Below the pieces are notes generated by a model that saw only the letters and a program-made list of their open reading frames with translations, did not search any database and was not told the origin of the DNA. A stretch of DNA of 59,702 nt from an uncultured Alphaproteobacteria bacterium (GTDB lineage: Bacteria > Pseudomonadota > Alphaproteobacteria > JAJFIK01): assembly GCA_964531285.1 (NCBI GenBank), contig CAZHDI010000010.1, positions 1-59,702 on the forward strand. Reading direction: 5' to 3'. The position numbers and the translations under genes are program-made. Of this stretch, positions 11,477 to 28,578 are shown in pieces. Numbering within the stretch: position 1 is the first letter of the stretch; every line of letters starts with the position of its first letter.

Positions 11477-11632
11477 TGCATCCTCCTACGATCAGACTTG
11501 AGACCTGATCATGTCATCATATGACTGATTAACATCGCCTCTCGCGTGCCGGTACAAATTTCGAGACTTCTGCCAAATTAACCGATGGGAAAGCGTAATC
11601 CGGCAAGGTGGGCCGTGCCGATAGGAGGGCAG

Positions 11633-13220: not shown

Positions 13221-15704
13221 ATGTCGGGACCTGCACTTTCGCACCAGCCCATGCCGTCAATGATGCCCGGCGATCTCGCCGGACAAATCGCATATACACT
13301 GAAATATGTTCTGTGTATCAATGACGCTGAGATCAGCTTAGGCGACCTCTATGTCGCCTTGGCGCTGAGTGTCCGGAATACCCTTGTTGACGGCCTTGCC
13401 CAGAGCCGGTTGCGCGACCGCAGTCAGGGATGCAAGAAAGTCCATTATCTGTCGATGGAGTTCTTGGTCGGCAAGTGTACGGAGAATAATCTACTCAATC
13501 TGGGTCTCTACGGTGAAGCGGAAACGGCCATCGGTTCTTATGGCTATGCCCTTCCCGATGTCTTGCACATGGAGCATGATCCGGCGCTAGGGAATGGCGG
13601 TCTCGGGCGCCTGGCGGCCTGCTTCCTCGACTCGATGGCGACGCTGGATATCGCCGGGTTTGGTTATGGAATCAACTATGACTATGGCCTGTTCCGGCAG
13701 TCCATATCGAACGGGTATCAGAAGGAGTCGCCGGATGCTTGGCGATCCGATGGGGCGCCCTGGCTTATTGAGCAGCACCACAAGACCAAGATCGTGCCGA
13801 TTTTTGGGAATGTTCTGTCTACGACAGACGGGAATGGTGCCTATAATCCGAGTTGGATGAACTGGCAGACGATTTTGGGTGTGCCATATGATATGCCAAT
13901 CGTCAGCGGAAACGGCACACGGACGAATTTTCTTCGGCTATACTCGGCAAAGGCTTCGGACGAATTCGACATCAAAGTCTTCAATGACGGCGATTATTTC
14001 AAGGCCATAGAGAATAAGATTGACTCGGAGCGGATCTCCAAAATTCTCTATCCTGAGGATAGTCGGGAGGAGGGCAAGGAGCTGCGCCTTCTTCAGGAAT
14101 ACTTCTTTGTTGCATGCGCCATTCGCGACATTGTGGACGACCATCGCCAGCAGGATGGCACGCTGGAGACATTCGCACGTTATAACGCCATTCAGCTCAA
14201 CGACACCCATCCCGCCTTGGCCATTGCAGAGCTCATGCGGCTTATGGTTGACGAACATCGTCTGCCCTGGGAACTCGCCTGGGAGCAAACCCAAGCGGCT
14301 TGTTCCTACACAAACCATACGCTGCTTCCTGAAGCCCTTGAACGGTGGTCCGAACCGCTTCTTGCGCGGGTTCTGCCGCGCCATAATCAGATCATTCGGG
14401 AGATCGACCGGCGCTTTGTTGACGCCATGCTGGCCCGAGGCATCGACCGGGCGGCTATCGATAAAATGTGCATCATCAAAGATAGTAACGATGGCAGCAC
14501 GTCCGAGATCCATATGGCGAATCTGTCGATTATCGGCAGCCATGCGACCAATGGCGTTGCAGCGCTCCATACGGATCTCATCAAGTCGGACCTCGTGCCT
14601 GAGTTCTATCGCGTCTGGCCGGAGCGATTTCAGAACAAGACCAATGGCGTGACGCCGCGCCGCTGGTTGAAGCAAGCCAACCCGCGCCTGGCGGCGCTTA
14701 TCACCGACGCGATTGGGCCCGGATGGATGGACGACCTTTCGGCGCTCCGCGGGCTCGAAGTATTTGCTACGGACAGTCCGTTTCAGGAGAAGTTTCGTGT
14801 CGTGAAGGATAGCGCGAAGCGGGACTTGGCGGCGCTGATCTATACGACAACCCGGATTCGCGTCGATCCCGACACCATCTTCGATATTCAGGTGAAGCGC
14901 ATCCATGAGTATAAGCGGCAGCTGCTCAATGTGCTCCAGATCATCGATACCTATCTTGAGATCAGCGACGGGGGAGCCGTACCGCGAACGCCGGCAACCT
15001 ATGTCTTCTCGGGTAAGGCGGCGCCGGGCTACTTTATGGCCAAGCGCATTATCAAGCTGATCAACGCTGTCGCGACCGTGGTCAATCAAGATCCGACAGT
15101 TTCGCAGCATTTGAAGGTGGCCTATGTGCCCGACTATCGGGTTTCGGTTGCTGAGCGGATCTTTCCGGCGGCAAATCTCAGTGAGCAGATCTCCACCGCC
15201 GGTTTCGAAGCGTCGGGGACCGGCAACATGAAGTTCATGATGAACGGTGCTCTTACGATCGGTACGATGGATGGCGCAAATGTGGAGATTTGCGAAGAGG
15301 CGGGTTCGGAGAATATCTACATCTTCGGTAAATCTGTAGATGAGATCGCCGCCCTCAAAACCGGCGGCTACAATCCGTGGGACTTCTATCATAACAATCC
15401 GCGGATCCAGCGTGTTCTCGATGCCCTCAATAGCGATTTGTTTGCACCGGGAGAGCCGGGTCTGTTCGAGCCGATCTACTATAGCCTGTTGAGCGGCGGC
15501 GATTACTTCTGTTTGCTGGCCGATTTTCAGGATTACGTGGATTGCAAGACCCGCGTCTTGGAGGATTTCCAGGATCAGCAGGACTGGACACGAAAGGCGA
15601 TCCTGAACATCGCCCGATCGGGGAAGTTTTCCTCCGATCGGACGATTGCGGAATATGCGCGGGACATCTGGGGGATTGATCCTTCCAATGCCGGGGCGGC
15701 TTAG
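13221..15704 (+). CDS. glgP: glycogen/maltodextrin phosphorylase (GT35)
   Basis: 827 aa. EASGTGNMKFMMNGALTIGTMDGANVE pyridoxal-phosphate lysine motif, with phosphorylase-like sequence over the full length. Confidence 0.95.
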   Translation: MSGPALSHQPMPSMMPGDLAGQIAYTLKYVLCINDAEISLGDLYVALALSVRNTLVDGLAQSRLRDRSQGCKKVHYLSMEFLVGKCTENNLLNLGLYGEAETAIGSYGYALPDVLHMEHDPALGNGGLGRLAACFLDSMATLDIAGFGYGINYDYGLFRQSISNGYQKESPDAWRSDGAPWLIEQHHKTKIVPIFGNVLSTTDGNGAYNPSWMNWQTILGVPYDMPIVSGNGTRTNFLRLYSAKASDEFDIKVFNDGDYFKAIENKIDSERISKILYPEDSREEGKELRLLQEYFFVACAIRDIVDDHRQQDGTLETFARYNAIQLNDTHPALAIAELMRLMVDEHRLPWELAWEQTQAACSYTNHTLLPEALERWSEPLLARVLPRHNQIIREIDRRFVDAMLARGIDRAAIDKMCIIKDSNDGSTSEIHMANLSIIGSHATNGVAALHTDLIKSDLVPEFYRVWPERFQNKTNGVTPRRWLKQANPRLAALITDAIGPGWMDDLSALRGLEVFATDSPFQEKFRVVKDSAKRDLAALIYTTTRIRVDPDTIFDIQVKRIHEYKRQLLNVLQIIDTYLEISDGGAVPRTPATYVFSGKAAPGYFMAKRIIKLINAVATVVNQDPTVSQHLKVAYVPDYRVSVAERIFPAANLSEQISTAGFEASGTGNMKFMMNGALTIGTMDGANVEICEEAGSENIYIFGKSVDEIAALKTGGYNPWDFYHNNPRIQRVLDALNSDLFAPGEPGLFEPIYYSLLSGGDYFCLLADFQDYVDCKTRVLEDFQDQQDWTRKAILNIARSGKFSSDRTIAEYARDIWGIDPSNAGAA

Positions 15705-15721: not shown

Positions 15722-16684
15722 ATGCGGTTCAAGGCTTTCGATAGGCGGTGCGGAGGGCGAGGCCTTTCGCATGCCGCCATTGGTGTGATCGCCATTGCGT
15801 GTACCGCGTGTGCGTCGCCCCGTCATGACGGCGAGTCGTCTCTGGTCGCCCAGGGGATCCTGTCATCATTCGATGTTCCGCTTAAAGATTTGAGAGAGCG
15901 GCCCGAAGGAGGTGTTATGCGGCGCCTTCTGCACGGCTTTAGTGGCAGTTTGTCTGCCGGCATGCCGCTGGATCTGTCACAGGCAGAAACCACAGAAGGT
16001 GAGGGGCAGCGGGCGCGTGTCGGTAACACGCCGACCCTCAAGGCGACGGTGAAGTACAACCCTGTGAGTGCGTGGTTCGCGACGGGTACGGCCTATATCT
16101 ATCTTGATCGTGATCTTCAGGAGGAGTGGAATCCCGACTTCTCTTATGTCTTCGGGTATGACGATTGGCGCCCTTATACGTTCAGCTTGGTTTATTCGAA
16201 CTATGGCGGCAATCGCTTCAGCCCTGATCGGGCTCAAGGGGCGGAGGTGACCGAGTTCGATGAGGGTACGGTTTCACTGGGATGGAAGTTTCCCATTCCG
16301 GACCGGCTGGCAAAGCCCTTCGTTGTGGCATCAGATGGCGGTATCGGTTGCATCATCGGTTATAACGTCAGTCCACGGTATTTTGACTTGAGATCGTCGG
16401 AGAACCGGTCGTGGAAACAGGCTGCCTCGCTCGGCTGCAAATACATCATCACGGGGAATTGGTATCTCAACTGGACGGCGTTCTATTATCCCAAAGAGTA
16501 TCAACAACAGCCCTGGGACCCGGATTATACCTACGGATTTGGCTACTTCGACTGGCGGCCGGGAACGATTAGTCTTCAGTATAACAATTATTCGGGTAAC
16601 CGTTTTCCAGGGCGGCAGCGCGGTGACGAGACTGGGCGGTTCATCGATGGTGAATTGTCAGTTTCTTGGAGCTGGAGTTTCTGA
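15722..16684 (+). CDS. hypothetical outer-membrane beta-barrel protein with internal duplication
   Basis: Signal or possible lipobox (AIACTAC). Alternating aromatic/Gly-rich strands. Two homologous ~55-aa blocks (W[ND]PD[FY][ST]Y.FGY.DWRP...S[LV].Y[SN]NY[GS]GNRF). C-terminal Phe. The stop lies 2 nt before the next gene. Confidence 0.6.
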   Translation: MRFKAFDRRCGGRGLSHAAIGVIAIACTACASPRHDGESSLVAQGILSSFDVPLKDLRERPEGGVMRRLLHGFSGSLSAGMPLDLSQAETTEGEGQRARVGNTPTLKATVKYNPVSAWFATGTAYIYLDRDLQEEWNPDFSYVFGYDDWRPYTFSLVYSNYGGNRFSPDRAQGAEVTEFDEGTVSLGWKFPIPDRLAKPFVVASDGGIGCIIGYNVSPRYFDLRSSENRSWKQAASLGCKYIITGNWYLNWTAFYYPKEYQQQPWDPDYTYGFGYFDWRPGTISLQYNNYSGNRFPGRQRGDETGRFIDGELSVSWSWSF

Positions 16685-16686
16685 TC

Positions 16687-17934
16687 ATGACGACCGCATT
16701 CTCCTCCATGCTCATCGGACGGCGGAAAAACCTCCTGATCGTTGATGATAGCCAAAGCTTCCGCTTTGTTTTGAAAAAACTGCTGTCCCGCCTCGGTTTC
16801 ACGGTGTTTGAGGCCGGCGACGGCCAGGCCGCGCTTGATATTCTTGCATCCGAGGACATCCCTGTCGTGATCTGCGATTGGGAAATGCCGGGCATGGATG
16901 GTATCGAATTCTGCAGAACGGTGCGGCGTGCCTATCCGGATGACTATAAATATATCCTGATGCTGACGTCCCATGATGAAAGTACGGCCATTGAAGTCCT
17001 TTTCGATGCCGGAGCAGACGATTATATCACCAAGCCACCGGCGATGACGGCTCTGCGTGCCCGTCTTCTGGGCGCCCTGAGGATCGTTTCGCGCTATGAC
17101 GATCTGCGATGGTTCAATAGGGAGCTTCAGGAAAAGAAGGACGCCATCGATAAGTCCTTCGCCAGTATCCGGGACGATCTGCTGGTCGCTGAAACGATCC
17201 AACGTCAATATCTGCCGAATGACTTCGACCCTATTGGTGCGGTTCGCTTCGCCGGGGAATTTTTGCCCGCGTTCCATACGTCAGGCGATATCTTCAATTA
17301 CGTCCCGATCAACGAGACGCAGATTTGTCTGTTTTCGGCCGATGTATCCGGGCATGGCGTGGCGTCGGCCCTCCTTGCCATCACAATCGGTCAAACACTG
17401 TGCTTCGATGGAGATGCGTCGGATGCCACCTTTGTGGTGGATCGGGCCGGCAAGCGCAGAGCGCGTGATCCGGCAGAGGTCGTTGATTGGCTCAATCAAC
17501 GTTTCGCCAATGGCCAGACGGATCATTATTTTACGATAACCTATTGTGTTTTGGACTTGGAAACCTCTGCCCTGCGATATTGTCAGGCAGGGCATTGCCC
17601 GATCATTCGGGTGAATGCGGCCGGTGAGGCATCATTGATCGGGGCCGGGGGGCTGCCGGTTGGAATGCTACCAACCGCCCGATATGAGACCTGTACGATC
17701 GATCTTGAACCTGGTGACCGGATCTATCTCTACTCGGATGGTATCTCGGAAGCCGAGAACGAAACAGATGATATGTACGGACCTGAGTCTATGATGGCAT
17801 CCTTGTCCCAATCGCGGACGGCGTCGCTTGAAGGATCGATCGAACGGCTCTTGCAAGCGGTACAGAGCTGGCAGGCCGCACAGTCTTTCCTTGATGACGT
17901 GTCGATCATCAGTTTCGAATACCAGGCCGCATGA
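16687..17934 (+). CDS. response-regulator receiver fused to PP2C/SpoIIE phosphatase (RsbU-like)
   Basis: REC: LLIVDDSQSF ... VVICDWEMPGMDG ... DDYITKP. PP2C: SGDIFNY ... FSADVSGHGVASAL ... LYSDGISEA. Confidence 0.9.
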   Translation: MTTAFSSMLIGRRKNLLIVDDSQSFRFVLKKLLSRLGFTVFEAGDGQAALDILASEDIPVVICDWEMPGMDGIEFCRTVRRAYPDDYKYILMLTSHDESTAIEVLFDAGADDYITKPPAMTALRARLLGALRIVSRYDDLRWFNRELQEKKDAIDKSFASIRDDLLVAETIQRQYLPNDFDPIGAVRFAGEFLPAFHTSGDIFNYVPINETQICLFSADVSGHGVASALLAITIGQTLCFDGDASDATFVVDRAGKRRARDPAEVVDWLNQRFANGQTDHYFTITYCVLDLETSALRYCQAGHCPIIRVNAAGEASLIGAGGLPVGMLPTARYETCTIDLEPGDRIYLYSDGISEAENETDDMYGPESMMASLSQSRTASLEGSIERLLQAVQSWQAAQSFLDDVSIISFEYQAA

Positions 17935-17960: not shown

Positions 17961-18293
17961 ATGCTTATGACCAAGCGGCAGGAAGGCCAGCGTTTGATCC
18001 TGGCTTTGCATGAAAAACGTCTTGATGCGGCCGTTGCGGTCGATTTCAAGGAGCAGGTTGTTCAAGACGTCGACAGCATTGGGACTGATGTCGTCATCGA
18101 TCTTACGGATGTCGAATTCATCGACAGCTCAGGGCTGGGTGCTCTCGTTGCCGTGCTGAAACATGTGAGCGGGAAGGGCCGACTCGTTCTGACGGGGTTG
18201 CGCACGAAGACCGAGCAGATCTTCAAACTGACCCGCATGGACACGGTCTTCGAAATTTATCCGTCCATTGACGAAGCGCTTGAGGCGGCTTGA
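17961..18293 (+). CDS. STAS-domain anti-sigma-factor antagonist (RsbV/SpoIIAA-like)
   Basis: 110 aa. FIDSSGLGALV contains the canonical phosphorylatable Ser. Confidence 0.9.
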   Translation: MLMTKRQEGQRLILALHEKRLDAAVAVDFKEQVVQDVDSIGTDVVIDLTDVEFIDSSGLGALVAVLKHVSGKGRLVLTGLRTKTEQIFKLTRMDTVFEIYPSIDEALEAA

Positions 18294-18314: not shown

Positions 18315-19505
18315 ATGAAAGCCATGATCCTGTGCGCCGGTCAAGGAACGCGGTTGCGCCCCCTGACTTATGCGGTGCCCAAGCCGATGGTACCCCTCGT
18401 CGACCGGCCCGTGCTGCAGTACATCGTAGAGCACTTGCGCGATCAAGGTGTCGACGATCTCGCGATAAATCTGAGTTATCTGCCGGAGGCGATTCAAAAC
18501 TACTTCCGGGATGGGTCGGCTTATGGCGTGGACGTGACATACTCCTATGAGGGACGGCTCGTCGATGGCGAGTTTAAGGGCGCGGCCATCGGGTCGGCCG
18601 GAGGGCTGCGAAAGGTTCAGGACGAGCTTGATTTCTTTGATGACACGTTTCTGGTGCTCTGCGGCGATGCGGTTATCGATCTCGATATTCGCGCGGCTGT
18701 CCGGCAACACAAAGAGCGCCGGGCCTTAGCGACGATCGTGCTCGCGGATGTGCCGCAGCATGCCGTCTCGAAATACGGGATTGTCGATATGGCCAGTGAC
18801 GGCCGTATATCGGCGTTTCAGGAGAAGCCGGAGATTGCCGAGGCCGTCAGTACGCTGGCAAATACCGGTATTTACATCTTCGAGCCGGAAATCTTCGACC
18901 ATATCCCGACCGGACAAACCATGGACTTGGGCGGGGATCTGTTTCCAAAGCTTACCGAGGGCGGACATGCGATCTATGGCGGGGTCGCCCCCCTTACTTG
19001 GCTCGATATCGGAACCCTTCAAGACTACGCCGCCGCTTCTTTTCGTCTGTTGACTGACCGGTCGGCCGGTATTGATATTCCGGGGCGTGTCGTCGATGAT
19101 CGTTTGCGCACGGGGCCACATGTCACCATGGATCGGAAGGCGGTTACGCTTGAGGGACCGATCTATTTAGGCGGTGGGACGGTTATCGAGGCCGGGGCCC
19201 GCATTATCGGACCGGCGGTCATCGGGCAGAATTGCCGCATCAGCGCGAATGCCGTCGTGCACCAGTCGGTCTTGGGCGATCATGTTCATGCCCGGTCCGG
19301 TGCGATGATCTCGAATGCGGTCATTTCCGGTGGATACTTCATCAATGAAGCCGGTGAATTCATTCATCTGCGCAAATCGGGACCTGTCGGCGACGTGCGT
19401 GAGCCGGCCGGTTCCGGCGCCGATGATATGGCTAGTGACGTTGTCGGCTCTGCGGACGGCGACAGCGCCGTCATCCGTCGGCCGCGACAAGCAAGCGGCC
19501 ATTAG
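18315..19505 (+). CDS. NDP-sugar pyrophosphorylase (sugar-1-phosphate nucleotidyltransferase with C-terminal left-handed beta-helix)
   Basis: MILCAGQGTRLRPLTYAVPKPMVP nucleotidyltransferase signature. C-terminal hexapeptide-like repeats (IGPAVIGQNCRISANAVV). Confidence 0.85.
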   Translation: MKAMILCAGQGTRLRPLTYAVPKPMVPLVDRPVLQYIVEHLRDQGVDDLAINLSYLPEAIQNYFRDGSAYGVDVTYSYEGRLVDGEFKGAAIGSAGGLRKVQDELDFFDDTFLVLCGDAVIDLDIRAAVRQHKERRALATIVLADVPQHAVSKYGIVDMASDGRISAFQEKPEIAEAVSTLANTGIYIFEPEIFDHIPTGQTMDLGGDLFPKLTEGGHAIYGGVAPLTWLDIGTLQDYAAASFRLLTDRSAGIDIPGRVVDDRLRTGPHVTMDRKAVTLEGPIYLGGGTVIEAGARIIGPAVIGQNCRISANAVVHQSVLGDHVHARSGAMISNAVISGGYFINEAGEFIHLRKSGPVGDVREPAGSGADDMASDVVGSADGDSAVIRRPRQASGH

Positions 19506-19506
19506 G

Positions 19507-19974
19507 ATGATGCCGGCCGGGCCGATCGCACAATACCGGATCGCCAGCACATTTCATGCTGTTCGCACCTTGCTCACTGATCTGGGTGACCGTCTTTCCG
19601 GGCAGGTCGATGAAGCAACACTTGCGCGGCTTGAACTATGCTTGGCCGAAGCGCTGAACAACATAGTCGAGCACGGATATCAGGAAAATCCGAATGGCGA
19701 GATCCTGGTGGATACGGACTGGGACGGCGAGGCGGTGCGGACCCGTATCACGGATTTTGGCCGATCCAGTCAAGACGCAAACGGAGCATATCCGGAACCG
19801 GTCCAGGGGCAGCCGGACGATTTGAAAGAGGGTGGGTATGGACTGTCCCTCATTCATACGATTGCCTCGCGCATTGACTATAACTCCGAGGGCGGCCGGA
19901 ATACAACGACGATCTGGCAATCCATAGGGGCAGTGTACCCCGATACGCAGACGGAACGCTTCCCGCAAGCTTAG
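19507..19974 (+). CDS. GHKL anti-sigma-type serine kinase (RsbW/SpoIIAB-like)
   Basis: N-box EALNNIVEHG and G-box GGYGLSLI. ATG at 19507 lies 1 nt after the upstream TAG. The track ORF (19315) overlaps the previous gene out of frame. Confidence 0.85.
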   Translation: MMPAGPIAQYRIASTFHAVRTLLTDLGDRLSGQVDEATLARLELCLAEALNNIVEHGYQENPNGEILVDTDWDGEAVRTRITDFGRSSQDANGAYPEPVQGQPDDLKEGGYGLSLIHTIASRIDYNSEGGRNTTTIWQSIGAVYPDTQTERFPQA

Positions 19975-20064
19975 CGTTTCAAGCTGTGGGTGTTTGTATC
20001 AAGCCGGCGGTCCGGCATGCCGTTTCGTATATCCCCCAACCGGTTTATGCGTCCGGCTGAACCC

Positions 20065-20408
20065 GATGAACTCTTTCCGCTAATACGCGGCCGGATTGCA
20101 AAGACCCATTTGCGGGACGGCGGCGGCGTCGATGCGGTCAGTACGTGACGGTGACGTCATCGGGACGTCGTGCTGACGGACTGGTCCATGCCGGCTATGG
20201 GCGGTTTTAGGGCAACTGTCCGGATACGCCAATATAAAGCCGAGCACGACTACAGGCCGGCGAAAATCCTTGATCTGAGTGCCAATGCCATAACCGAGTA
20301 ACGGGAAGAAGGTCTTGCGGTTGGAATGGACCGGTATCTGAGCAAGCCTATTGTGAAGGGGGATCTGCTCGCCGCGTCTACGCCGCCCAACATCCATCGT
20401 TCGCTTAA
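20065..20408 (+). pseudogene. decayed response-regulator receiver domain (three in-frame stops)
   Basis: One frame reads ...GVDAVST*R*RHRDVVLTDWSMPAMGGFRATVRIRQY...ILDLSANAITE*REEGLAVGMDRYLSKPIVKGDLL. The REC hallmarks (acceptor D, S/T, K) are kept. The frame is broken by TGA at 20146, TGA at 20152 and TAA at 20299, and the N-terminal DD strand is missing. Confidence 0.6.
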
Positions 20409-20471
20409 CCCTCTATTCTCCGCTGGCGTCTTATCCTTTGAGGGCAGGACATTATCGACCGGCGGGCGAGG

Positions 20472-22313
20472 GTGCGCGTGACGCAGTTTTACTTTGAGGC
20501 CTATGAGGACCGGGTGCCGGACCCACCGGTGCCCTACTCGATGATACGCGAGATGCTTTGGCAGTTTCTCGCGACCCTGAGTCTTGCAGTCGGAGGATGG
20601 TACATCCTGTGGCGGTGGACCGAGTCGCTCAATATGGACGCACTTTGGTTTGCCATTCCGCTCGCGACTGCCGAGACTTGCGCATTTATCGGTCTCATCC
20701 TGTTCTATATCAATCTGTGGTCGACAAGAGATCCGGAGCGTCAGCCTGCGCCCTATCTGAAAAGCGAATGCGGTATCGCCAACAGTGCGCCGGATGAGCC
20801 GATCTCGGTCGATATCTTTTTTACGAGCTATGATGAGGATCCCGAACTTGTTCGGTTGAGCCTTCGGGACGCGAAGCGCGTCTATTATCCGCATCCCATC
20901 GATATTCGCATTCATGTCCTGGACGATGGTCGCCGTGAGGCCATGCGGACGGTTGCCGAGGAAGAGCAGGTCGGCTACATCACCCGATCGAACAATGTTG
21001 GGTTCAAGGCTGGAAATCTGCGTAATGGCCTTGAGAAAACATCGGGTGATTTCATCGTGATCTGCGACGCGGACACCCGCCCGTTTCCCACGCTTCTTGA
21101 TCACACCCTGGGGTATTTCAGAGATCCAAATGTCGCTTGGGTTCAAACCCCGCAATGGTTTTTCGACCTTCCTGCAGGCCGTACCCTTGACCGAATCTGG
21201 GAGGATTATGCCGGTCCGCTCGGCCGGGTCGCGGGAAAAGGTATTCAGTCGATCTTTGGGCAGATCACTTTGGGCAAGGATCCTTTCGATAACGATCCCA
21301 AGATGTTTTATGATGTGATCCAGCGCCGCAGGAATGCGCATAACGCCTCATTCTGTTGCGGGGCAGGGTCGATCCATCGCCGGGAAGCCGTGATGGATGC
21401 CGCTTTGAAGGCCTATGCTAACCAAATCGGCCGGTCGGTCGACACGGTGGCCCAAACGGTGGACGATCCGGACCTGCGCCGGGCTCTGCGCAGCGAAATG
21501 GTTCGGGCTCATGTTCGCGACACGGAGTTTACCCCCTACAAGTTTCACGTTTCCGAGGATATCTACACGTCAATTGTGCTCCACGGTGACAAGGATCGGC
21601 GCTGGAAGTCCGTTTTTCATCCAGATGTCGAAACCAAGATGCTCTCGCCGCAGGACCTGCAAGCCTGGACCGTACAGCGCTTCAAATATGCCGGCGGCTC
21701 CCTCGACATCGCTCTTCATGACAACCCGATCCTGACATCCGATATGACGGTCGGCCAGAAACTCATGTATGCCGCGACGTTCTGGTCTTATCTGTCGGGG
21801 CTTTGGAACATCGTGTTTTTATCCGCACCGATCATTTATTTGTTTACCGGTATCGCTCCGGTGGAGGCCTATTCCCACGACTTTTTTGTCCGCATTATTG
21901 CCTTTCTGATTCTGAATGAACTGGCCATGATGGTCGGCACTTGGGGCGTGGAAAACTATCGCGGCAAAGCATATTATCTGGCGTTCTTCCCCCTCAACCT
22001 TCGCGCGCTCTGGACCGTTCTGCGCAGCCAAAAGATCAAGTTCCCGACGACGCCTAAGGAGCGTCAGGACGGGACCTTCCTTTTTCTTGTCCGCCCCCAG
22101 CTGGCTGTCATGATCCTGACGGCCATTGCGATCGTCTACGGCTTCTTCTCATGGCTACAATCGGGGTCCTATAGCGATCTGAGCGCCTATATCGCGAATG
22201 TATTCTGGGGACTGAACAACATTCTTTCATTGGGCGTGATCGTGACAGCCGCACTTTGGAAGCCGCCGACTGAGAAGCCCGAGTTCGCGCCTCTGGCGCT
22301 GAAAGAGGTTTGA
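20472..22313 (+). CDS. processive family-2 glycosyltransferase, cellulose-synthase (BcsA)-like, no PilZ domain
   Basis: TM helices flank a GT-A domain: FFTSYDEDP, VLDDG, ICDADT, QTPQWF, FCCGAGSIHRR, SEDIYTS (the TED equivalent), QRFKYAGG (the QxxRW equivalent), FPTTPKE. GTG start. Ends right after the last TM helix. Confidence 0.9.
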   Translation: MRVTQFYFEAYEDRVPDPPVPYSMIREMLWQFLATLSLAVGGWYILWRWTESLNMDALWFAIPLATAETCAFIGLILFYINLWSTRDPERQPAPYLKSECGIANSAPDEPISVDIFFTSYDEDPELVRLSLRDAKRVYYPHPIDIRIHVLDDGRREAMRTVAEEEQVGYITRSNNVGFKAGNLRNGLEKTSGDFIVICDADTRPFPTLLDHTLGYFRDPNVAWVQTPQWFFDLPAGRTLDRIWEDYAGPLGRVAGKGIQSIFGQITLGKDPFDNDPKMFYDVIQRRRNAHNASFCCGAGSIHRREAVMDAALKAYANQIGRSVDTVAQTVDDPDLRRALRSEMVRAHVRDTEFTPYKFHVSEDIYTSIVLHGDKDRRWKSVFHPDVETKMLSPQDLQAWTVQRFKYAGGSLDIALHDNPILTSDMTVGQKLMYAATFWSYLSGLWNIVFLSAPIIYLFTGIAPVEAYSHDFFVRIIAFLILNELAMMVGTWGVENYRGKAYYLAFFPLNLRALWTVLRSQKIKFPTTPKERQDGTFLFLVRPQLAVMILTAIAIVYGFFSWLQSGSYSDLSAYIANVFWGLNNILSLGVIVTAALWKPPTEKPEFAPLALKEV

Positions 22314-22315
22314 CA

Positions 22316-23644
22316 ATGACATTCACCAAAGGCGTTATGCGTGCCCGCAGTCACATCGTCTTTCTGGTCGGTCTGTGTGCGGCCTTCACACTGATTGTCC
22401 ATCTCGATGCTCTTGGTGCCCGGCAGCGTCCGATCTCGATTGATGTCTTCGAGATTGCTACATCGGAGCAGTCGGCTCCGGCGAAGCCGGTCGGTGCACT
22501 GACCGCTCAGGAAGAAGCGGCTGCGCAAACAGCATGGGTTTACTTCGAGAATAACCTCCAACCGGAGACAGGATTGGTAAACTCCGTTGACGGATATCCG
22601 TCGACGACCATGTGGGACCAGGCCTCCTACATGCTCGCGCTGATTTCGGCGTATCGGCTTGATGTCATCGACTCGAGCATGTTCGACCGGCGAATGACGA
22701 GCCTTTTGACGGCCCTTGCGGCGCTTCCCTTGTTCGACGGCGCGCTCCCGAACAAGGCGTACTCAACCACGTCACTCGCCATGACCGATTATGAAGGTCA
22801 AGTCAGTGAACGGGGCATTGGCTGGTCGGCGCTGGATATCGGACGGATCATGGTGCCGCTCAATATTGTGGTCTGGAATTATCCGCGCTATGCCGGCCTC
22901 GTCAAAGACGTCGTCCAGCACTGGCAGATCGACGCTATGCTGGATGATGGATTTATGATTGGAACACGGACCGATGCGAGTGACAGAACGGAGCGCGTTC
23001 AGGAGGGTCGGATCGGATACGAGGAGTATGCCGCCGCGTCTCTGGGGCTTCTGGGCTATGACGCGAAGCGAGCCGGCAGCTACACGGACTTTCTCCAATT
23101 CGAGCCGATTTACGGTGTCGATGTACCGGTCGATGTGCGCGACGTCAGGAGCTATGGGGCTCATAACTATGTGGTGAGTGAGCCCTACATTCTGGCCGCA
23201 CTGGAATATGGGTGGACATCGGATATGCAGGAATTTGCCTATCGCGTTTATGCGGCGCAGGAACAGCGCTTCCGCCGGACAGGACAACTCACTGCGGTCA
23301 GTGAGGACAATGTCGATCGGCCGCCGTATTTTGTCTACAACACGGTTTTTGCGAATGGGCGGCGCTGGAACACGATCTCCGAGGACGGAGAAGATGTGAG
23401 CGACTTACGCTCTGTTAGCACTAAGGCAGCATTCGGTTGGTACGTTCTTTATCCTAATGACTATACCACCCGGCTCGTCGAAAAGGTCATTGCGCTGTCC
23501 GATCCGGAGAAGGGCTTCTATTCCGGGTGGTATGAAGTGCTCGATGAACCGAACACGGCCATCACGGCCAACACCAATGGAATCATTCTGCAAAGCTTGC
23601 ACTTCAAGAAGTTCGGCAAGCTCGTTCAGCTTTATACGGACTAA
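22316..23644 (+). CDS. periplasmic (alpha/alpha)6-glycosidase-like / DUF3131-like protein, paralogue 1
   Basis: Signal anchor. AWVYFENN...TGLVNSVDGYPSTTMWDQASY ... LPNKAY ... QEGRIGYEEYAA ... AHNYVVSEPY ... PPYFVYNTVF. ATG lies 2 nt after the GT2 stop, with RBS GAAAGAGG. Confidence 0.75.
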   Translation: MTFTKGVMRARSHIVFLVGLCAAFTLIVHLDALGARQRPISIDVFEIATSEQSAPAKPVGALTAQEEAAAQTAWVYFENNLQPETGLVNSVDGYPSTTMWDQASYMLALISAYRLDVIDSSMFDRRMTSLLTALAALPLFDGALPNKAYSTTSLAMTDYEGQVSERGIGWSALDIGRIMVPLNIVVWNYPRYAGLVKDVVQHWQIDAMLDDGFMIGTRTDASDRTERVQEGRIGYEEYAAASLGLLGYDAKRAGSYTDFLQFEPIYGVDVPVDVRDVRSYGAHNYVVSEPYILAALEYGWTSDMQEFAYRVYAAQEQRFRRTGQLTAVSEDNVDRPPYFVYNTVFANGRRWNTISEDGEDVSDLRSVSTKAAFGWYVLYPNDYTTRLVEKVIALSDPEKGFYSGWYEVLDEPNTAITANTNGIILQSLHFKKFGKLVQLYTD

Positions 23645-23656
23645 AGGATAGCGCGG

Positions 23657-25153
23657 ATGCGGGGCAGTCTGAAACAGGCGGCGAACGCTTTGTCTTGTAC
23701 ACGCCGCATTGGTGCGCTTGGTGCGCTCGCTCTGCTCATTGCCTGTACCGGACCCGATGCGTGGTTACTTGACGAAAGTGATGACCTCATACCGCACGCG
23801 GCTGACCTGAGACGGGATGGCTTCGGTCCGCGACGGTCTTATCCAACGCGGCGGGGGCCGTTGACCGAGCGCGAGATGGACATGGCTCGGATCGCCTGGA
23901 CCTATTTCGAGAATAACATGCAGGAGGCAACGGGCCTCGTAAACGCCGTGAATGATTATCCGTCTACAACTCTTTGGGATACAGCATCCTATCTTGGCGG
24001 CATGGTGGCGGCCTACGAATTGGGCATCATCGATCGAAACGAGTTTTCACGGCGTCTTGTGAAGATACTCGGTACACTGAACAGTATGGACTTCTTCCGA
24101 GGGGAGCTTCCCAATAAGGTCTACAATACCCAAACGGCCGAGAAGGTGAATTACGCCAATCAACCGGGCGAGATCGGGTTCTCGGCGCTCGATCTTGGCC
24201 GGCTGCTGATTTGGCTCGAGATCATCAAGAACCGCTATCCGGAACGGGCCAATGCGATCGATACCTTTGTCCTGCGCTGGAATTTCTGTAACGTCGTCGA
24301 TAATCGCGGCATGATGTACGGCGCCATCGTCGGCCCTGATAATGAGACACAGTATGTCCAGGAAGGCCGGCTCGGTTATGAAGAGTATGCGGCGAAGGGA
24401 TTTCAGCTTTGGGACATCGATACCGATCTTGCCTCCCGTCCGGAACCCTACAGCATTCTGACGACGTATGGCGTCAAAGTCCCCTATGATTCGCGGGATC
24501 CACGCACGTTGGATGCGCATAACTATGTGGTGTCGGAAAGTTATGTGCTGGACGGTATTGAGCTGAACTGGGATCACGCAGACGACACGACGTCCAGCGA
24601 CCGGCATCACAGCGATCGTATCGCCGAGAAGTTCGGCAATCTCATCTATGAAGCCCAGGTTGCCAGATACCGGGCGACAGGCATCTTAACGGCGCGTACC
24701 GAGCATCAACTCGCCGAGCCGCCCTACTTCGTTTATGATACGATCTATACGGACGGCTATGCGTGGAACACTATCACCGAAGACGGAAAGCATGTCCCGC
24801 AATTCGCTGCGATAGCGCTAAAGGGGGCCCTTGGGATGTGGGCGGTTTGGGAGACGGAGTACACGGACCTCCTGTTCGATACGATTGCCGATCTTTATCA
24901 TCCTGAGAAGGGATTCTACGAGGGCATCTTTGAAAATGGCAGTGGGGTGATCGAGACATATACGTCCAATAATAACGGTATCATGCTCGAGGCGCTTCTT
25001 TATAAGGCGCAGGGGAAGCTTTTACGTCCGTCAACGGAGAAGACAATCTGGGATCAGACGATGCGGGACAACTTCCTGTGGGACCGGCACAATGGTAAAG
25101 CCAAGTGCTATCCGCGCAAGAGGTTGGAGGGCACGAATGAGCCGGAGAATTAA
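23657..25153 (+). CDS. DUF3131-like lipoprotein, paralogue 2
   Basis: Lipobox LLIAC. AWTYFENN...TGLVNAVNDYPSTTLWDTASY ... QEGRLGYEEYAA ... AHNYVVSESY ... PPYFVYDTIY. Confidence 0.75.
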   Translation: MRGSLKQAANALSCTRRIGALGALALLIACTGPDAWLLDESDDLIPHAADLRRDGFGPRRSYPTRRGPLTEREMDMARIAWTYFENNMQEATGLVNAVNDYPSTTLWDTASYLGGMVAAYELGIIDRNEFSRRLVKILGTLNSMDFFRGELPNKVYNTQTAEKVNYANQPGEIGFSALDLGRLLIWLEIIKNRYPERANAIDTFVLRWNFCNVVDNRGMMYGAIVGPDNETQYVQEGRLGYEEYAAKGFQLWDIDTDLASRPEPYSILTTYGVKVPYDSRDPRTLDAHNYVVSESYVLDGIELNWDHADDTTSSDRHHSDRIAEKFGNLIYEAQVARYRATGILTARTEHQLAEPPYFVYDTIYTDGYAWNTITEDGKHVPQFAAIALKGALGMWAVWETEYTDLLFDTIADLYHPEKGFYEGIFENGSGVIETYTSNNNGIMLEALLYKAQGKLLRPSTEKTIWDQTMRDNFLWDRHNGKAKCYPRKRLEGTNEPEN

Positions 25154-26546
25154 AGTACTCTGGCTGGTTGTTGTCCTGTCAATGGGTGTGTCGTTGACCG
25201 GATGCGGTGTTGCCTATCGCGGACTGGAGACAGCAGCCACGAGCCTTGCGCAGTCGTCGCTCTGGTATGTTGGCCGCCGAGGACCGCTGTCGGAGAAGGA
25301 ACTGTCCTGGGCTCGAACGGCCTGGACATATTTCGAGAACAATTACCATCCGCAAACCGGGCTCGTCAATGGCGCCGACCGCTACCCGGTCGTCAGTATG
25401 TGGCATGTCGGCGATTATCTCGCCGCGCTCCATAGCGCCCGCCAACTTGGTATCATTGAAGAGCGGATATACGATCAGCGTTTGAGTGCTGTCCTGGCCC
25501 GTCTCTCCGGACTGCCGCTGGCCTTCGGCGAATTGCCGAACACGCTCTACAATGCGCAAAGCGGAGTGATGGTGAACTATGCCAATCAACCGGAGGAAAT
25601 CGGTTGGGCGATTATCGATATTGGCAGGGTCCTCATATGGCTGAGTATCGTGAAAGCGGATGTTCCTCATTTCGCGGAGTATATCGACAGGATTGTCTTG
25701 CGATGGTCGTTCTGCAAGGCCCTTGACGATGAGGGGCGTCTTCAAAGCGCCGTAAAGATCAATGACCGCCTACAGACGATCCCTGAGACAACCATCGGAT
25801 ATACCGATTACGCACAAACGGGCTTCAGGCTCTGGGGACTTTCGACGGTGCCCCGCTTGATGTCAGACCCGGATAACCGCGTCGATATTTTTGGTATCTC
25901 CTTTCCGCTCGACAGTGATTGGGCCCGCCAGTCCGGTACCTACGGGGCGCTGGTATCGGCGCCGTTTCTTTATGCGGGCCTTGAGACACATTGGGATTTT
26001 CCGGTGGCGTTGGGAGCGGCCGATGCTCAGAGTGCCTTCTTTCGTGATCTTGCCAACCGGGTCTATGATGTTCAGGAAAGCAGGTTCGAGCTTGAAGGTA
26101 TCTCAACAGCACGAACCGACCATCAACTCAGCCGTCCGCCATTCTATGTGCAGGATTCCATTTTCGGGGCCGGTTATCCGTGGTCGACATTATCCGATAA
26201 CGGGGAGAACAGACCAGACCTCGCCCTTGTGTCGACACGGGCCGTATTCGGCATGTGGGCACTGTGGAATACATCCTATACCGATCATCTCATGCGGCTG
26301 ATTGAGCCGCTTTTCGATCCGCAACGCGGTTGGTTCGAGGGTCGATACGAGAACAGCGCGGGGTATGAACCCATGATCACCTTATCGACCAATACAATGG
26401 TGCTCCAGGCGCTTGCCTTTAAACAGAACGGTCGCCTGTTTCAGCCGGTTCGCAAGAAGAGCCTCATCGGTCATGTCCTATCCGATGCATTCCGGGTTAC
26501 CGGACAGTGTCTTGCGAATCGTCGGGAGGATGACGACGATGCGTAA
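25137..26546 (+). CDS. DUF3131-like lipoprotein, paralogue 3 (most divergent)
   Basis: Lipobox SLTGC. AWTYFENN...TGLVNGADRYPVVSMWHVGDY. Conserved acidic blocks are altered (PETTIGYTDYAQ, LVSAPF). The start overlaps the paralogue 2 stop by 17 nt. Confidence 0.75.
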   Translation: MSRRIKVLWLVVVLSMGVSLTGCGVAYRGLETAATSLAQSSLWYVGRRGPLSEKELSWARTAWTYFENNYHPQTGLVNGADRYPVVSMWHVGDYLAALHSARQLGIIEERIYDQRLSAVLARLSGLPLAFGELPNTLYNAQSGVMVNYANQPEEIGWAIIDIGRVLIWLSIVKADVPHFAEYIDRIVLRWSFCKALDDEGRLQSAVKINDRLQTIPETTIGYTDYAQTGFRLWGLSTVPRLMSDPDNRVDIFGISFPLDSDWARQSGTYGALVSAPFLYAGLETHWDFPVALGAADAQSAFFRDLANRVYDVQESRFELEGISTARTDHQLSRPPFYVQDSIFGAGYPWSTLSDNGENRPDLALVSTRAVFGMWALWNTSYTDHLMRLIEPLFDPQRGWFEGRYENSAGYEPMITLSTNTMVLQALAFKQNGRLFQPVRKKSLIGHVLSDAFRVTGQCLANRREDDDDA

Positions 26547-28578
26547 TGGCGTACTGATTGTCCTGACCTGGCTTTTCGTTTCGATGCCATGGTCCGGTTC
26601 GCTGTCTTGGGCGCGGACGGACGCTTATCTCGATGTCTTGCGTCAGGGGGTGGTGCTGTCACAAGTCGGCCGGTGGGAGCAGGCCGCTGATCATTGGGCA
26701 AAGGGCCGGACCGCGCTCGATGCGACGGAAGGAATGTCGGATCAGGATCTGGCGCTGCTTGGCATTCTCCAGGCAATGGCTCTTGAGAAGACAGGCAATG
26801 CTCAGGCCTACGAGGTCTGGACGGATGCCCTGGCGGCCTTTCTGAAAGCGGGAACGCGATGGGAGGATTTTCGCGCCACGCTGGCAGGTCACTTGCGCGG
26901 AATGCAAATTTCGCGCGGATCCACCTTCTCGACTGAGGGCGTCATTACCGCCGATCAGAAGCCCGGTGACTTAATCCTTTCAAGCTTGGATTCCCTTCTT
27001 CAGTTCACGACTTATGACGGGCCAGCCCCGGGGCTTCAGCCGGTTCAACATCGCGTGGAAGAGCCTCTGACGGTTGCCCGATCGTATTTTCCGAGACCAC
27101 CCGCTATCTTGGCTGAGGACAATTCCACGGGCCCCAGGGGGCGGACCATCAGCGCTCCACAGGCTGGCGAGGGCGAGCGGTCGTCATCGAGAGTGATGCG
27201 CGGCGTACCCGAGATAGGGCCGGATGAGCTGAGTTCTGATCCAACGCAAAATCAATCGAAAACGGACGAATTTTCAGCAGGGTCGGGGGCACTCAATGGC
27301 GAGAGCGCCTTCAGTATGCGTTTCCCACCGGCGAGAAGCGGGGCCGAGGGTCCATCCGGGATGCTTTCGGGACCGACGCTAAGCCGTCGCCTCGATCGTC
27401 GTTCAGCCGGTGCTTTGAGCGAGGCTGATCGGGACGCCGCACGCCGGGCCTGGCGGTATATCGTAATGAACCGTCAGTCGAACACGGGGCTCGTGAACTC
27501 GGTTCAGACGTATCCCTATACGACCATGTGGGATCTGGGCAGCAGCATTGCGGCGATCGTCAGTGCTTTCCGGATTGGGATCATTGATGAGTGGGTGGTC
27601 GAAGACTATCTCGATAGAATGCTCCGCACATTAAGCGACATACCGCTTTATGACGGTGTCCTTCCGAACAGGGAATACGATACGCGTTCGGCGATGATGA
27701 CCGACCTGCGCAATCGGCAATCGTCCGTCGGCAGCGGGTATTCGTCCATCGATGTGGCGAGGCTATTGGTCTGGCTGGCTGTCATCAAGGAGCATTTTGA
27801 CACTTTTGCCGAACGGGTTGAGTCCATCGTGAGCCGATGGGATCTGACGCGCGTACATGACGGCGACGAATTTTACCGGGAGCTTCTCACGGCGGAAGGC
27901 ATCGACCGCAAGCAGGAAGGCCGGATGGGATATGAGCAGTATACGGCTCTTGCGTTTGCCCATTGGGGGATCGTTGTCCCTGGTGCGCATGACACTATGG
28001 AGTCGCGAACCGTGCGCCTCCACGATATTCCGATTCTCAAGGATACCCGGACGCCGAACCACCTCAATCTGGAACCGTTCCTGCTGGCCTTGATGGAGTT
28101 CGAAACACGGATGCCCGTGGTCGAAACACAGGCGGCGCGTCTGCTTGCGGCGCATGTAAAGCGGTACGAAGATACCGGCATTCTGTCCCTGTATACGGAG
28201 GATTCCATCGATCAAGCGCCGTGGTTTCTGTACAACACGGTCCTCGCAGATGCAGGGCCCTGGCGCTGCTTGACCTCCGCCGGGAAAGAGGCCGACCGGT
28301 GTCAAAGGCTGTCGACAAAGGCGGCGTTTGCGGCAGAGGCAGTCTTCGATTTGGACTACACGCGCATCGCCCGGCAACAGGTCATCGAGGGTGTGGATAT
28401 GCGCCGGGGCTATTATGCGGGCATCTATGAAGACGGAACGATGAACCGTGTTTTGACGGTCAATACCAATGCCATCATTCTCGAAGCGCTCGCTTTCAAA
28501 GCAGGTGGATCGAGGGCGTTCCTCGCCAATGCGTATGCGGATCCTGGCACAGCGACGGGCAGCCGTGCAGCGCGCTGA
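26539..28578 (+). CDS. DUF3131-like protein, paralogue 4, with N-terminal helical (TPR-like) region and low-complexity linker
   Basis: Signal peptide (SGSLSWA), ~130 aa helical region, ~150 aa Pro/Ser/Gly-rich linker. Then AWRYIVMN...TGLVNSVQTYPYTTMWDLGSS ... QEGRMGYEQYTA ... APWFLYNTVL. ATG overlaps the previous stop (ATGCGTAA). Confidence 0.75.
   Translation: MRNGVLIVLTWLFVSMPWSGSLSWARTDAYLDVLRQGVVLSQVGRWEQAADHWAKGRTALDATEGMSDQDLALLGILQAMALEKTGNAQAYEVWTDALAAFLKAGTRWEDFRATLAGHLRGMQISRGSTFSTEGVITADQKPGDLILSSLDSLLQFTTYDGPAPGLQPVQHRVEEPLTVARSYFPRPPAILAEDNSTGPRGRTISAPQAGEGERSSSRVMRGVPEIGPDELSSDPTQNQSKTDEFSAGSGALNGESAFSMRFPPARSGAEGPSGMLSGPTLSRRLDRRSAGALSEADRDAARRAWRYIVMNRQSNTGLVNSVQTYPYTTMWDLGSSIAAIVSAFRIGIIDEWVVEDYLDRMLRTLSDIPLYDGVLPNREYDTRSAMMTDLRNRQSSVGSGYSSIDVARLLVWLAVIKEHFDTFAERVESIVSRWDLTRVHDGDEFYRELLTAEGIDRKQEGRMGYEQYTALAFAHWGIVVPGAHDTMESRTVRLHDIPILKDTRTPNHLNLEPFLLALMEFETRMPVVETQAARLLAAHVKRYEDTGILSLYTEDSIDQAPWFLYNTVLADAGPWRCLTSAGKEADRCQRLSTKAAFAAEAVFDLDYTRIARQQVIEGVDMRRGYYAGIYEDGTMNRVLTVNTNAIILEALAFKAGGSRAFLANAYADPGTATGSRAAR

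What the first reader, a model, noticed from the sequence alone, without database searches (positions are those of the whole stretch)
20065..20408. Receiver-domain relic with three in-frame stops between the kinase gene and the synthase gene
The ~500-bp apparent intergenic region is not featureless. One frame translates to a near-complete REC domain that keeps the phospho-acceptor context (DVVLTDWSMP), the S/T position (LSANA) and the conserved Lys (YLSKPI). It is interrupted by TGA (20146), TGA (20152) and TAA (20299), and it lacks the N-terminal acidic strand. This suggests a response regulator or hybrid-kinase C-terminus was recently lost from the cluster, possibly the original partner of the REC-PP2C pathway. 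The remaining DNA now forms the leader of the GT2 gene.
Basis: seen in the sequence. Interest (0 to 1): 0.5.

Follow-up and report, generated by a model that had tools for sequence, protein, structure and literature searches.

The report
Dead fragment of a receiver domain
The gap between the kinase gene and the glycosyltransferase gene holds a dead, truncated piece of a two-component receiver domain, most likely left when a different gene at this spot was replaced, so it is an ordinary pseudogene fragment.

Summary
It matches Pfam Response_reg (E=1.3e-11, 45 bits, profile 31-109 of 111). The phospho-acceptor Asp, the Ser/Thr position and the conserved Lys are kept. The first third of the domain (beta1-alpha1-beta2) is undetectable in any frame.

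Its nearest relatives are C-terminal receivers of hybrid histidine kinases with a HisKA-HATPase_c-REC-REC layout, at no more than 51% identity.

The evolutionary story is only partly supported. The four closest relatives of this cluster (GT2 68-76% identical) carry a roughly 730-aa GH2 hydrolase at this position, not a regulator. None of 54 classifiable related loci has a gene ending in a receiver domain next to the GT2 gene. The fragment resembles the hybrid kinases linked to this cluster in Rhodobacterales (31-38%) less than it resembles kinases found in other contexts. It also resembles the window's own REC-PP2C poorly (33%).

The kinase gene has a 14-16 aa tail that relatives lack. A motif conserved upstream of GT2 in relatives survives at 20405-20433, downstream of the fragment.

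Best reading: about 480 bp of foreign DNA replaced GH2, and the fragment is non-functional. Interest is low.

The parts
19507..19974 (+). RsbW-like anti-sigma-type serine kinase gene (HATPase_c_2). The start is ATG 19507 or 19510. The last 14-16 codons (about 19927-19971, IGAVYPDTQTERFPQA) have no counterpart in relatives.
   Evidence: Pfam PF13581, E=2.1e-23. Alignment with four orthologues shows the C-terminal extension.
19975..20124 (.). Spacer of unknown origin between the kinase stop codon and the receiver fragment.
   Evidence: No GH2, hybrid-kinase or receiver N-terminal remnant in any frame. The weak terminator-like hairpin at 20005-20022 is at chance level.
20125..20376 (+). Pseudogene fragment of a receiver (REC) domain covering alpha2 to alpha5. 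It is in one frame with no indels relative to homologues.
   Evidence: Pfam Response_reg profile 31-109 of 111. Subfamily HMM positions 35-117 of 123, 94 bits. 50.6% identity over 83 aa to P0129.
20146..20154 (+). Two in-frame TGA stops (20146-20148 and 20152-20154) inside the imperfect 6-bp repeat TGACGG/TGACGT, within alpha2.
   Evidence: Palindrome I2.
20179..20181 (+). Codon of the phospho-acceptor Asp (LTD|WSMP).
   Evidence: Aligned to the conserved D of lmD.
20278..20280 (+). Codon of the conserved Ser/Thr position (LSANA).
20299..20301 (+). Third in-frame stop (TAA).
20344..20346 (+). Codon of the conserved Lys (SKP).
20405..20433 (+). Conserved motif TTAAC-N5-ATTC-N9-CG-N2-T upstream of GT2. 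It lies 73 nt before the GTG start, against 69-71 nt in L001, L081 and L082. It is probably the ancestral GH2-GT2 spacer and a promoter-like element.
   Evidence: Function is inferred only. The sigma-70 scan found nothing.
20478..22313 (+). GT2 cellulose-synthase-like glycosyltransferase. The GTG start at 20478 matches the 611-aa database entry and the M-x-x-F-Y-F starts of relatives.

Best explanation
Nucleotides 20125-20376 are a non-functional internal fragment of a gene. They correspond to alpha2 through alpha5 of the C-terminal receiver domain of a hybrid histidine kinase with a sensor-HisKA-HATPase_c-REC-REC layout.

The fragment has no start codon. It lacks the first third of the domain and all of the kinase. 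It carries three in-frame stops.

It sits in a slot that, in the lineage's closest relatives, holds a roughly 2.2-kb GH2 glycoside hydrolase gene whose start overlaps the stop of the RsbW-like kinase gene. I infer that one or more illegitimate recombination or deletion events removed GH2 and left about 480 bp of other DNA (about 19927-20404).
- The left junction destroyed the kinase gene's original stop, which gave the protein a 14-16 aa tail.
- The right junction lies just upstream of the conserved motif that precedes GT2.

The fragment then drifted neutrally and does nothing today.

Shown: its identity as a receiver fragment, the truncation, the stops, the hybrid-kinase affinity, GH2 in the slot of relatives, and the kinase tail. 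Inferred: the replacement event, its direction, and the lack of function.
For: - Receiver identity: Pfam E=1.3e-11. PDB best hits are all hybrid-kinase receivers, including 8phn at 3.3e-14 and RcsC at 4e-11.
- Closest relatives: of the 150 best hits from a phmmer search of 1.84 billion representatives with the 48-aa stop-free piece, the closest by blastp are second, C-terminal REC domains of HisKA-HATPase_c-REC-REC proteins. They share the DWSMP and LSANA motifs.
- Truncation: the N-terminal third is absent in all six frames and no kinase remnant is present.
- Synteny: L081, L001, L082 and L002 (GT2 76-68% identical) all have HATPase-GH2-GT2. GH2 is absent from the whole window and leaves no trace in the gap.
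- Left junction: the kinase has a C-terminal extension unique to the window.
- Right junction: the conserved TTAAC...ATTC motif lies at the same distance from the GT2 start in the window and its relatives.
- No sign of function: no Rfam family, no unusual RNA fold (z=-0.59), and no Pfam hit for the small or antisense ORFs.
- Not random sequencing error: neighbouring genes are intact, tightly packed ORFs.
Against: - No relative closer than 76% (GT2) exists in any collection searched. The order of events therefore cannot be reconstructed, and GH2 as the ancestral state rests on parsimony.
- Six Rhodobacterales loci have a hybrid kinase directly after the RsbW-like gene. A kinase in this slot is therefore not unprecedented.
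- The 150 bp left of the fragment have no identifiable origin.
- The 252-nt fragment has no frameshifting indel despite three stops. That is slightly fewer indels than I would expect for an old bacterial pseudogene.
- Lack of function is inferred from the anatomy and was not tested.
Confidence: 0.72

Rival explanations
1. A hybrid kinase or response regulator belonging to this cluster, the phosphodonor for REC-PP2C, once sat between the RsbW-like gene and GT2. It decayed in place, leaving only its last receiver domain.
For: - The receiver is of the hybrid-kinase type.
- Hybrid kinases with a PAS-HisKA-HATPase_c-REC-Hpt layout follow the RsbW-like gene directly in six Rhodobacterales loci. One lies upstream of the STAS gene that precedes GT2 in an Ignavibacteriales locus.
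- The REC-PP2C in the window has no kinase in the cluster.
Against: - The four closest relatives have GH2 in the slot and no kinase.
- The relic is only 31-38% identical to the cluster-linked kinases' receivers. These rank at the bottom of the list, below about 150 other proteins from the library search.
- Those kinases have an Hpt domain after the REC and are separated from GT2 by DUF3131 and acyltransferase genes.
- There is no HisKA, HATPase_c or Hpt remnant around the relic.
- Genes for the three relic-like REC proteins whose contexts I looked up lie in unrelated surroundings.
Confidence: 0.17
2. Sequencing or assembly artefact. An intact receiver gene is present and the stops are errors.
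For: The source is a single contig with no second copy in any collection, so there is no independent check.
Against: - All three stops lie in one gapless frame, so they are base substitutions relative to homologues, not indels.
- The first third of the domain and any start codon are missing.
- More than 15 neighbouring genes are intact.
- Conserved family positions are also degraded: M to T, D/N to G, G to D.
Confidence: 0.02
3. The fragment is retained because it now has a function. It could be part of the GT2 leader or promoter region, or it could encode a small peptide such as the GTG ORF 20170-20301 (43 aa), which contains the DWSMP segment.
For: - The gap is the largest in the cluster and lies directly upstream of GT2.
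- The frame stays open from 20302 to a TGA at 20479 that overlaps the GT2 GTG start.
Against: - No Rfam family, and the fold energy is not different from shuffles.
- No promoter-like sigma-70 site.
- The motif conserved in relatives lies downstream of the fragment.
- Relatives do without this DNA.
- A receiver piece lacking beta1-beta2 cannot form the phosphorylation pocket. This rests on established knowledge of CheY-like receivers.
Confidence: 0.06
4. The fragment is a decayed duplicate of the receiver domain of the neighbouring REC-PP2C gene (16666-17934).
For: A receiver domain lies 3 kb upstream in the same cluster.
Against: tblastn of the relic against the window finds no second hit. Identity to that domain is 33% at 35 bits, the weakest match in the whole comparison.
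Confidence: 0.01

Closest known systems
Receiver (REC, CheY-like) domain, Pfam PF00072, hybrid-kinase subtype (for example PDB 8phn, RcsC 2ayz/2ayx, 7qz2)
   Same: Sequence match over alpha2 to alpha5. The phospho-acceptor Asp, the Ser/Thr position and the Lys sit in their usual motifs (D-x-x-MP, L-S/T-A-x-A, KP).
   Different: No beta1-alpha1-beta2, so no acidic pair. Three stop codons and no start codon. It cannot fold or be phosphorylated as a receiver.
Second (C-terminal) receiver of sensor-HisKA-HATPase_c-REC-REC hybrid histidine kinases (database proteins P0129, P0259, P0179, P0225, P0239, P0213)
   Same: These include most of the best matches, at 40-51% identity. They share the uncommon MDWSMP and I-x-GLSANA signatures.
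   Different: Members are 48-57% identical to each other but only 40-50% identical to the relic. None of the rest of such a protein is present. The three relic-like REC proteins I looked up lie in unrelated genomic contexts.
Cluster-linked PAS-HisKA-HATPase_c-REC-Hpt hybrid kinases in Rhodobacterales versions of this GT2/DUF3131 cluster (L018, L035, L049, L052, L064, L070)
   Same: A hybrid kinase gene directly downstream of the RsbW-like gene in the same type of cluster.
   Different: Only 31-38% identity to the relic. An Hpt domain follows the REC. These kinases are separated from GT2 by DUF3131 and acyltransferase genes.
Partner-switching control of a GT2 beta-glucan synthase (Bgr system and BgsA in Sinorhizobium meliloti; Baena et al. 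2019, as cited in PMC13438883)
   Same: The surrounding cluster has a PP2C phosphatase, a STAS protein and an RsbW-like kinase next to a cellulose-synthase-like GT2. A partner-switching system of this general kind is reported to control a glucan synthase.
   Different: This concerns the neighbourhood, not the relic. I did not test orthology with the Bgr proteins.

Membership tests
Response_reg (PF00072) receiver domain | Profile match above the curated threshold | tested here: met
   45.1 bits against a gathering score of 30.2, E=1.3e-11.
Response_reg (PF00072) receiver domain | Complete (beta-alpha)5 domain including beta1 with the acidic pair | tested here: not met
   Only profile positions 31-109 match. 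The N-terminal model finds nothing in six frames and scores no better than shuffles.
Response_reg (PF00072) receiver domain | Phospho-acceptor Asp, conserved Ser/Thr and conserved Lys | tested here: met
   D 20179-20181, S 20278-20280 and K 20344-20346 align to the conserved columns.
Response_reg (PF00072) receiver domain | Intact open reading frame (a functional gene) | tested here: not met
   Stops at 20146, 20152 and 20299, and no start codon in context.
Hybrid histidine kinase (HisKA-HATPase_c-REC-REC) | The receiver is most similar to the terminal receivers of this architecture | tested here: met
   Top single-domain hits and their Pfam architectures.
Hybrid histidine kinase (HisKA-HATPase_c-REC-REC) | HisKA and HATPase_c domains, or their remnants, upstream of the receiver | tested here: not met
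   tblastn of eight full-length family members finds only the REC piece.
Cluster-native hybrid kinase (PAS-HK-REC-Hpt) of GT2/DUF3131 clusters | Specific similarity to those kinases' receivers, and an Hpt remnant downstream | tested here: not met
   31-38% identity, the lowest-ranked matches. Nothing beyond the REC piece matches.
GH2 hydrolase occupying this slot in the closest relatives | Any GH2-derived sequence in 19850-20520 or elsewhere in the window | tested here: not met
   No tblastn hit in the window at E<=0.01. Only noise appears in the gap.
Known structured RNA (riboswitch or leader) upstream of GT2 | Rfam covariance-model match or unusually stable fold | tested here: not met
   No Rfam match at E<=1. 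Fold z-score is -0.59.

The most novel reading that the evidence does not exclude
The slot between the RsbW-like kinase gene and the GT2 synthase gene may be a recurrent exchange point. Signalling genes (hybrid kinases) and glucan-processing genes (GH2, GH9, DUF3131, acyltransferase) replace each other there. On this reading the fragment records that this Parvularculaceae-like lineage once wired a hybrid kinase into the partner-switching pathway and later lost it.
Probability: 0.15. Interest if true: 0.35.

Novelty: new member of a known kind. Interest (0 to 1): 0.15.

Why it matters
It matters little beyond annotation. The 500-bp 'intergenic' region should be labelled as a receiver-domain pseudogene fragment and not searched for a missing regulator.

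The comparison does show that the slot between the RsbW-like kinase and the GT2 synthase varies widely between lineages. It holds nothing, GH2, GH2+GH9, or a hybrid kinase with DUF3131 and an acyltransferase. This organism has lost the GH2 hydrolase that its closest relatives keep, which could affect how the glucan product is processed.

Tried and rejected
- Word-indexed homologue search with the full relic found nothing.
I used the 48-aa stop-free piece instead.
- A profile search seeded with the relic plus six relatives returned only short receiver proteins at no more than 53% identity. The contexts of three of them were unrelated to the cluster.
- An exact 22-mer scan of metagenome contigs gave three chance matches. 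None is a close relative.
- I first thought 'RPAEPDELFPLIRGRIAKTHL' might be a decayed beta1-alpha1 (AED...N...LVIR). An N-terminal model scored it no better than shuffles, so I dropped the idea.
- I also first thought alpha2 carried a deletion. The PDB and HMM alignments are gapless there.
- The inverted repeat 20122-20137 / 20372-20387 sits at the edges of the fragment. However, a 14-of-16 inverted repeat occurs in 56% of resampled sequences, so I treat it as chance.
- The source organism's name could not be obtained. The clusters are unnamed singletons.

Full report
**1. Observation**

TGA 20146, TGA 20152 and TAA 20299 are in frame.

With stops masked, the translation hits Pfam Response_reg at E=1.3e-11 and 45.1 bits against a gathering score of 30.2. 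The match covers profile positions 31-109 of 111, which is nt 20125-20376. A phmmer search of PDB sequences gives E=3.3e-14. The match is not chance.

The phospho-acceptor Asp (20179-20181), the Ser of LSANA (20278-20280) and the Lys of SKP (20344-20346) align to the conserved columns.

**2. Extent of the fragment**

I built an HMM from 60 related receivers. The relic aligns to positions 35-117 of 123 at 94 bits, without any gap.

A separate model of the N-terminal third (beta1-alpha1-beta2) scores none of the six frames of 19900-20140 better than 200 shuffled controls. Full-length relatives match nothing else in 19850-20520. The 200 bp to the left of the fragment match nothing in the window or in any fetched locus.

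So this is an internal fragment covering alpha2 to alpha5. It is about 70% of a domain, with no start codon and no kinase part.

**3. Kind of receiver**

The six best PDB hits are receivers of hybrid histidine kinases, including 8phn, RcsC, 7qz2, 7c1j, 3c97 and AHK5.

I ran an exhaustive phmmer search of 1.84 billion representatives with the 48-aa stop-free piece, then compared the hits locally with the whole relic. Most of the best matches belong to a subgroup of second, C-terminal REC domains in sensor-HisKA-HATPase_c-REC-REC proteins. The subgroup is P0129 (50.6% over 83 aa), P0259, P0179, P0225, P0239 and P0213. These proteins share the uncommon MDWSMP and GLSANA motifs with the relic.

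Nothing in the searched collections exceeds about 53% identity to the relic.

Within that subgroup, members are 48-57% identical to each other (mean 52%). The relic is 40-50% identical to them (mean 44%). From this and the three stops I infer roughly 0.07-0.2 substitutions per site since constraint was lost. That is moderate decay, neither fresh nor ancient. It is an estimate, not a measurement.

**4. Surroundings**

| Window coordinates | Gene |
|---|---|
| 11585-13114 | glycogen synthase-like (by sequence resemblance; no family search run) |
| 13221-15704 | glycogen phosphorylase-like (by sequence resemblance; no family search run) |
| 15722-16684 | possible porin (no Pfam match) |
| 16666-17934 | REC-PP2C phosphatase |
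| 17961-18293 | STAS protein |
| 18315-19505 | nucleotidyl transferase |
| about 19507-19974 | RsbW-like HATPase_c_2 serine kinase |
| 19975-20477 | the gap |
| 20478-22313 | cellulose-synthase-like GT2 |
| 22310-28578 | four DUF3131 paralogues (the first by Pfam; the others by similarity to it and to relatives' DUF3131 genes) |

A partner-switching module next to a GT2 glucan synthase is a known arrangement. The Bgr system controls the BgsA mixed-linkage glucan synthase in Sinorhizobium meliloti (Baena et al. 2019, cited in PMC13438883). I did not test orthology with it.

**5. Synteny**

The window is a whole 59,702-bp NCBI contig. Its proteins are singletons, and the nearest GT2 is 76% identical.

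The four closest relatives all show HATPase - GH2 (729-737 aa) - GT2:
- L081, a TARA contig (76%).
- L001, a Parvularculaceae MAG (74%).
- L082 (72%).
- L002, a Caulobacterales MAG (68%).

In L001 and in the gene calls for L081 and L082, the GH2 start overlaps the kinase stop. In L002 the longest ORF of the kinase gene overlaps the GH2 start in the same way.

GH2 is absent from the whole window and leaves no trace in the gap.

Slot content in the 54 related loci where I could classify it:

| Slot content | Loci |
|---|---|
| GH2 + GH9 | 16 |
| nothing (genes adjacent) | 16 |
| GH2 alone | 9 |
| hybrid kinase + DUF3131 + acyltransferase | 6 |
| DUF3131 + acyltransferase | 6 |
| acyltransferase alone | 1 |

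No locus has a gene ending in a receiver domain next to GT2.

The six kinase-bearing loci are all Rhodobacterales. Their kinases have a PAS-HisKA-HATPase_c-REC-Hpt layout. Their receivers are only 31-38% identical to the relic. They rank below roughly 150 other proteins from the library search.

The window's own REC-PP2C receiver is 33% identical to the relic, the weakest match of all.

**6. Junctions**

Left junction. The window's RsbW-like protein runs 14-16 residues (IGAVYPDTQTERFPQA) past the point where its four orthologues stop. This places the left junction near 19927.

Right junction. A motif TTAAC-N5-ATTC-N9-CG-N2-T lies 69-71 nt before the GT2 start in L001, L081 and L082. It lies 73 nt before the GTG at 20478 in the window, at 20405-20433. 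A TTAAC at a similar distance also occurs in L012, L045 and L062.

I take 20405-20477 to be the ancestral GH2-GT2 spacer. The motif resembles an ECF-type promoter (AAC ... CGT), but that is inference only. The sigma-70 scan found nothing.

The non-ancestral DNA is therefore about 19927-20404, roughly 480 bp, with the receiver fragment in its right half.

**7. Tests for function**

- No Rfam family at E<=1.
- The RNA fold energy is indistinguishable from shuffles, z=-0.59.
- No Pfam match for the antisense 105-aa ORF or for the two small sense ORFs that I scanned (19990-20148 and 20326-20481).
- The one terminator-like hairpin on the coding strand is at chance level.
- A receiver lacking beta1 and its acidic pair cannot form the phosphorylation site. 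This rests on established knowledge of CheY-like domains.

**8. Artefact check**

All three stops lie in one gapless frame, so they are substitutions relative to homologues, not indels. Several family-conserved residues are also degraded (M to T, D/N to G, G to D). The N-terminus is missing. More than 15 neighbouring genes are intact and tightly packed. Sequencing error does not explain the anatomy.

No independent copy of this DNA exists in the collections. The exact 22-mer scan gave only chance hits.

**9. Conclusion**

The proposal that it is the recently lost original partner of the REC-PP2C pathway is not supported by synteny or by sequence affinity. It is not excluded either, because no close relative is available and kinases do occupy this slot in Rhodobacterales.

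The most economical model is that GH2 was replaced by about 480 bp of DNA containing an internal piece of an unrelated hybrid kinase gene, which has since drifted. This is an ordinary pseudogene fragment, and interest is low.

Noticed in passing
window 20405-20433; L001 about 5932-5960; L081 about 3627-3655; L082 about 5930-5958: A motif TTAAC-N5-ATTC-N9-CG-N2-T lies 69-73 nt upstream of the GT2 start in the window and its three closest relatives. A TTAAC at a similar distance also occurs in L012, L045 and L062. It looks like an ECF-type promoter (AAC ... CGT), but nothing was tested.
   Followed up: partly
window 19927-19974: The RsbW-like kinase carries a 14-16 aa C-terminal tail (IGAVYPDTQTERFPQA) that is absent from four orthologues. 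Their stop codons overlap the start of the GH2 gene that is missing here.
   Followed up: yes
loci L001-L082, slot between the HATPase_c_2 gene and the GT2 gene: The slot content varies by lineage: GH2+GH9 (16 loci), nothing (16), GH2 (9), hybrid kinase+DUF3131+acyltransferase (6), DUF3131+acyltransferase (6), acyltransferase (1). The rest of the cluster (REC-PP2C, STAS, NTP transferase, GT2, DUF3131 repeats) is conserved across Alpha-, Beta- and Gammaproteobacteria.
   Followed up: partly
protein P0096 (756 aa, ENA contig of 3584 bp): One database GT2 homologue carries a HATPase_c_2 (PF13581) domain in the same predicted protein. This is either a real fusion of the RsbW-like kinase to the synthase or a gene-calling merge. 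If it is real, it argues for direct kinase-synthase coupling.
   Followed up: no
window 20122-20137 and 20372-20387: A 16-nt inverted repeat (14 of 16 complementary) sits at the two edges of the receiver fragment. An inverted repeat of this strength occurs in 56% of resampled sequences, so it is probably chance.
   Followed up: yes
window 19892-19910 and 20087-20105: An imperfect 19-nt direct repeat (16 of 19). One copy lies at the 3' end of the kinase gene and the other lies 20 nt before the receiver fragment. It could be microhomology left by the rearrangement, or it could be chance.
   Followed up: no
window 20143-20168: Both TGA stops lie in an imperfect 6-bp tandem repeat TGACGG/TGACGT that overlaps the palindrome TGACGTCA. 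Alignment to homologues shows no length change here.
   Followed up: partly
window 20302-20481: After the TAA, the relic frame stays open for 59 codons to a TGA at 20479-20481. That TGA overlaps the GT2 GTG start (GTGA). The chance of an open stretch this long is about 0.1-0.3, so I do not consider it significant.
   Followed up: partly
window 22310-28578: Four consecutive DUF3131 paralogues (444, 498, 484 and 721 aa) follow GT2, some with overlapping ends. The arrangement is conserved in relatives. The literature library has almost nothing on DUF3131 (4 papers, passing mentions).
   Followed up: no
window 20472 vs 20478: The longest ORF starts at GTG 20472. The database entry (611 aa) and the M-x-x-F-Y-F starts of relatives point to GTG 20478 as the real GT2 start.
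   Followed up: yes
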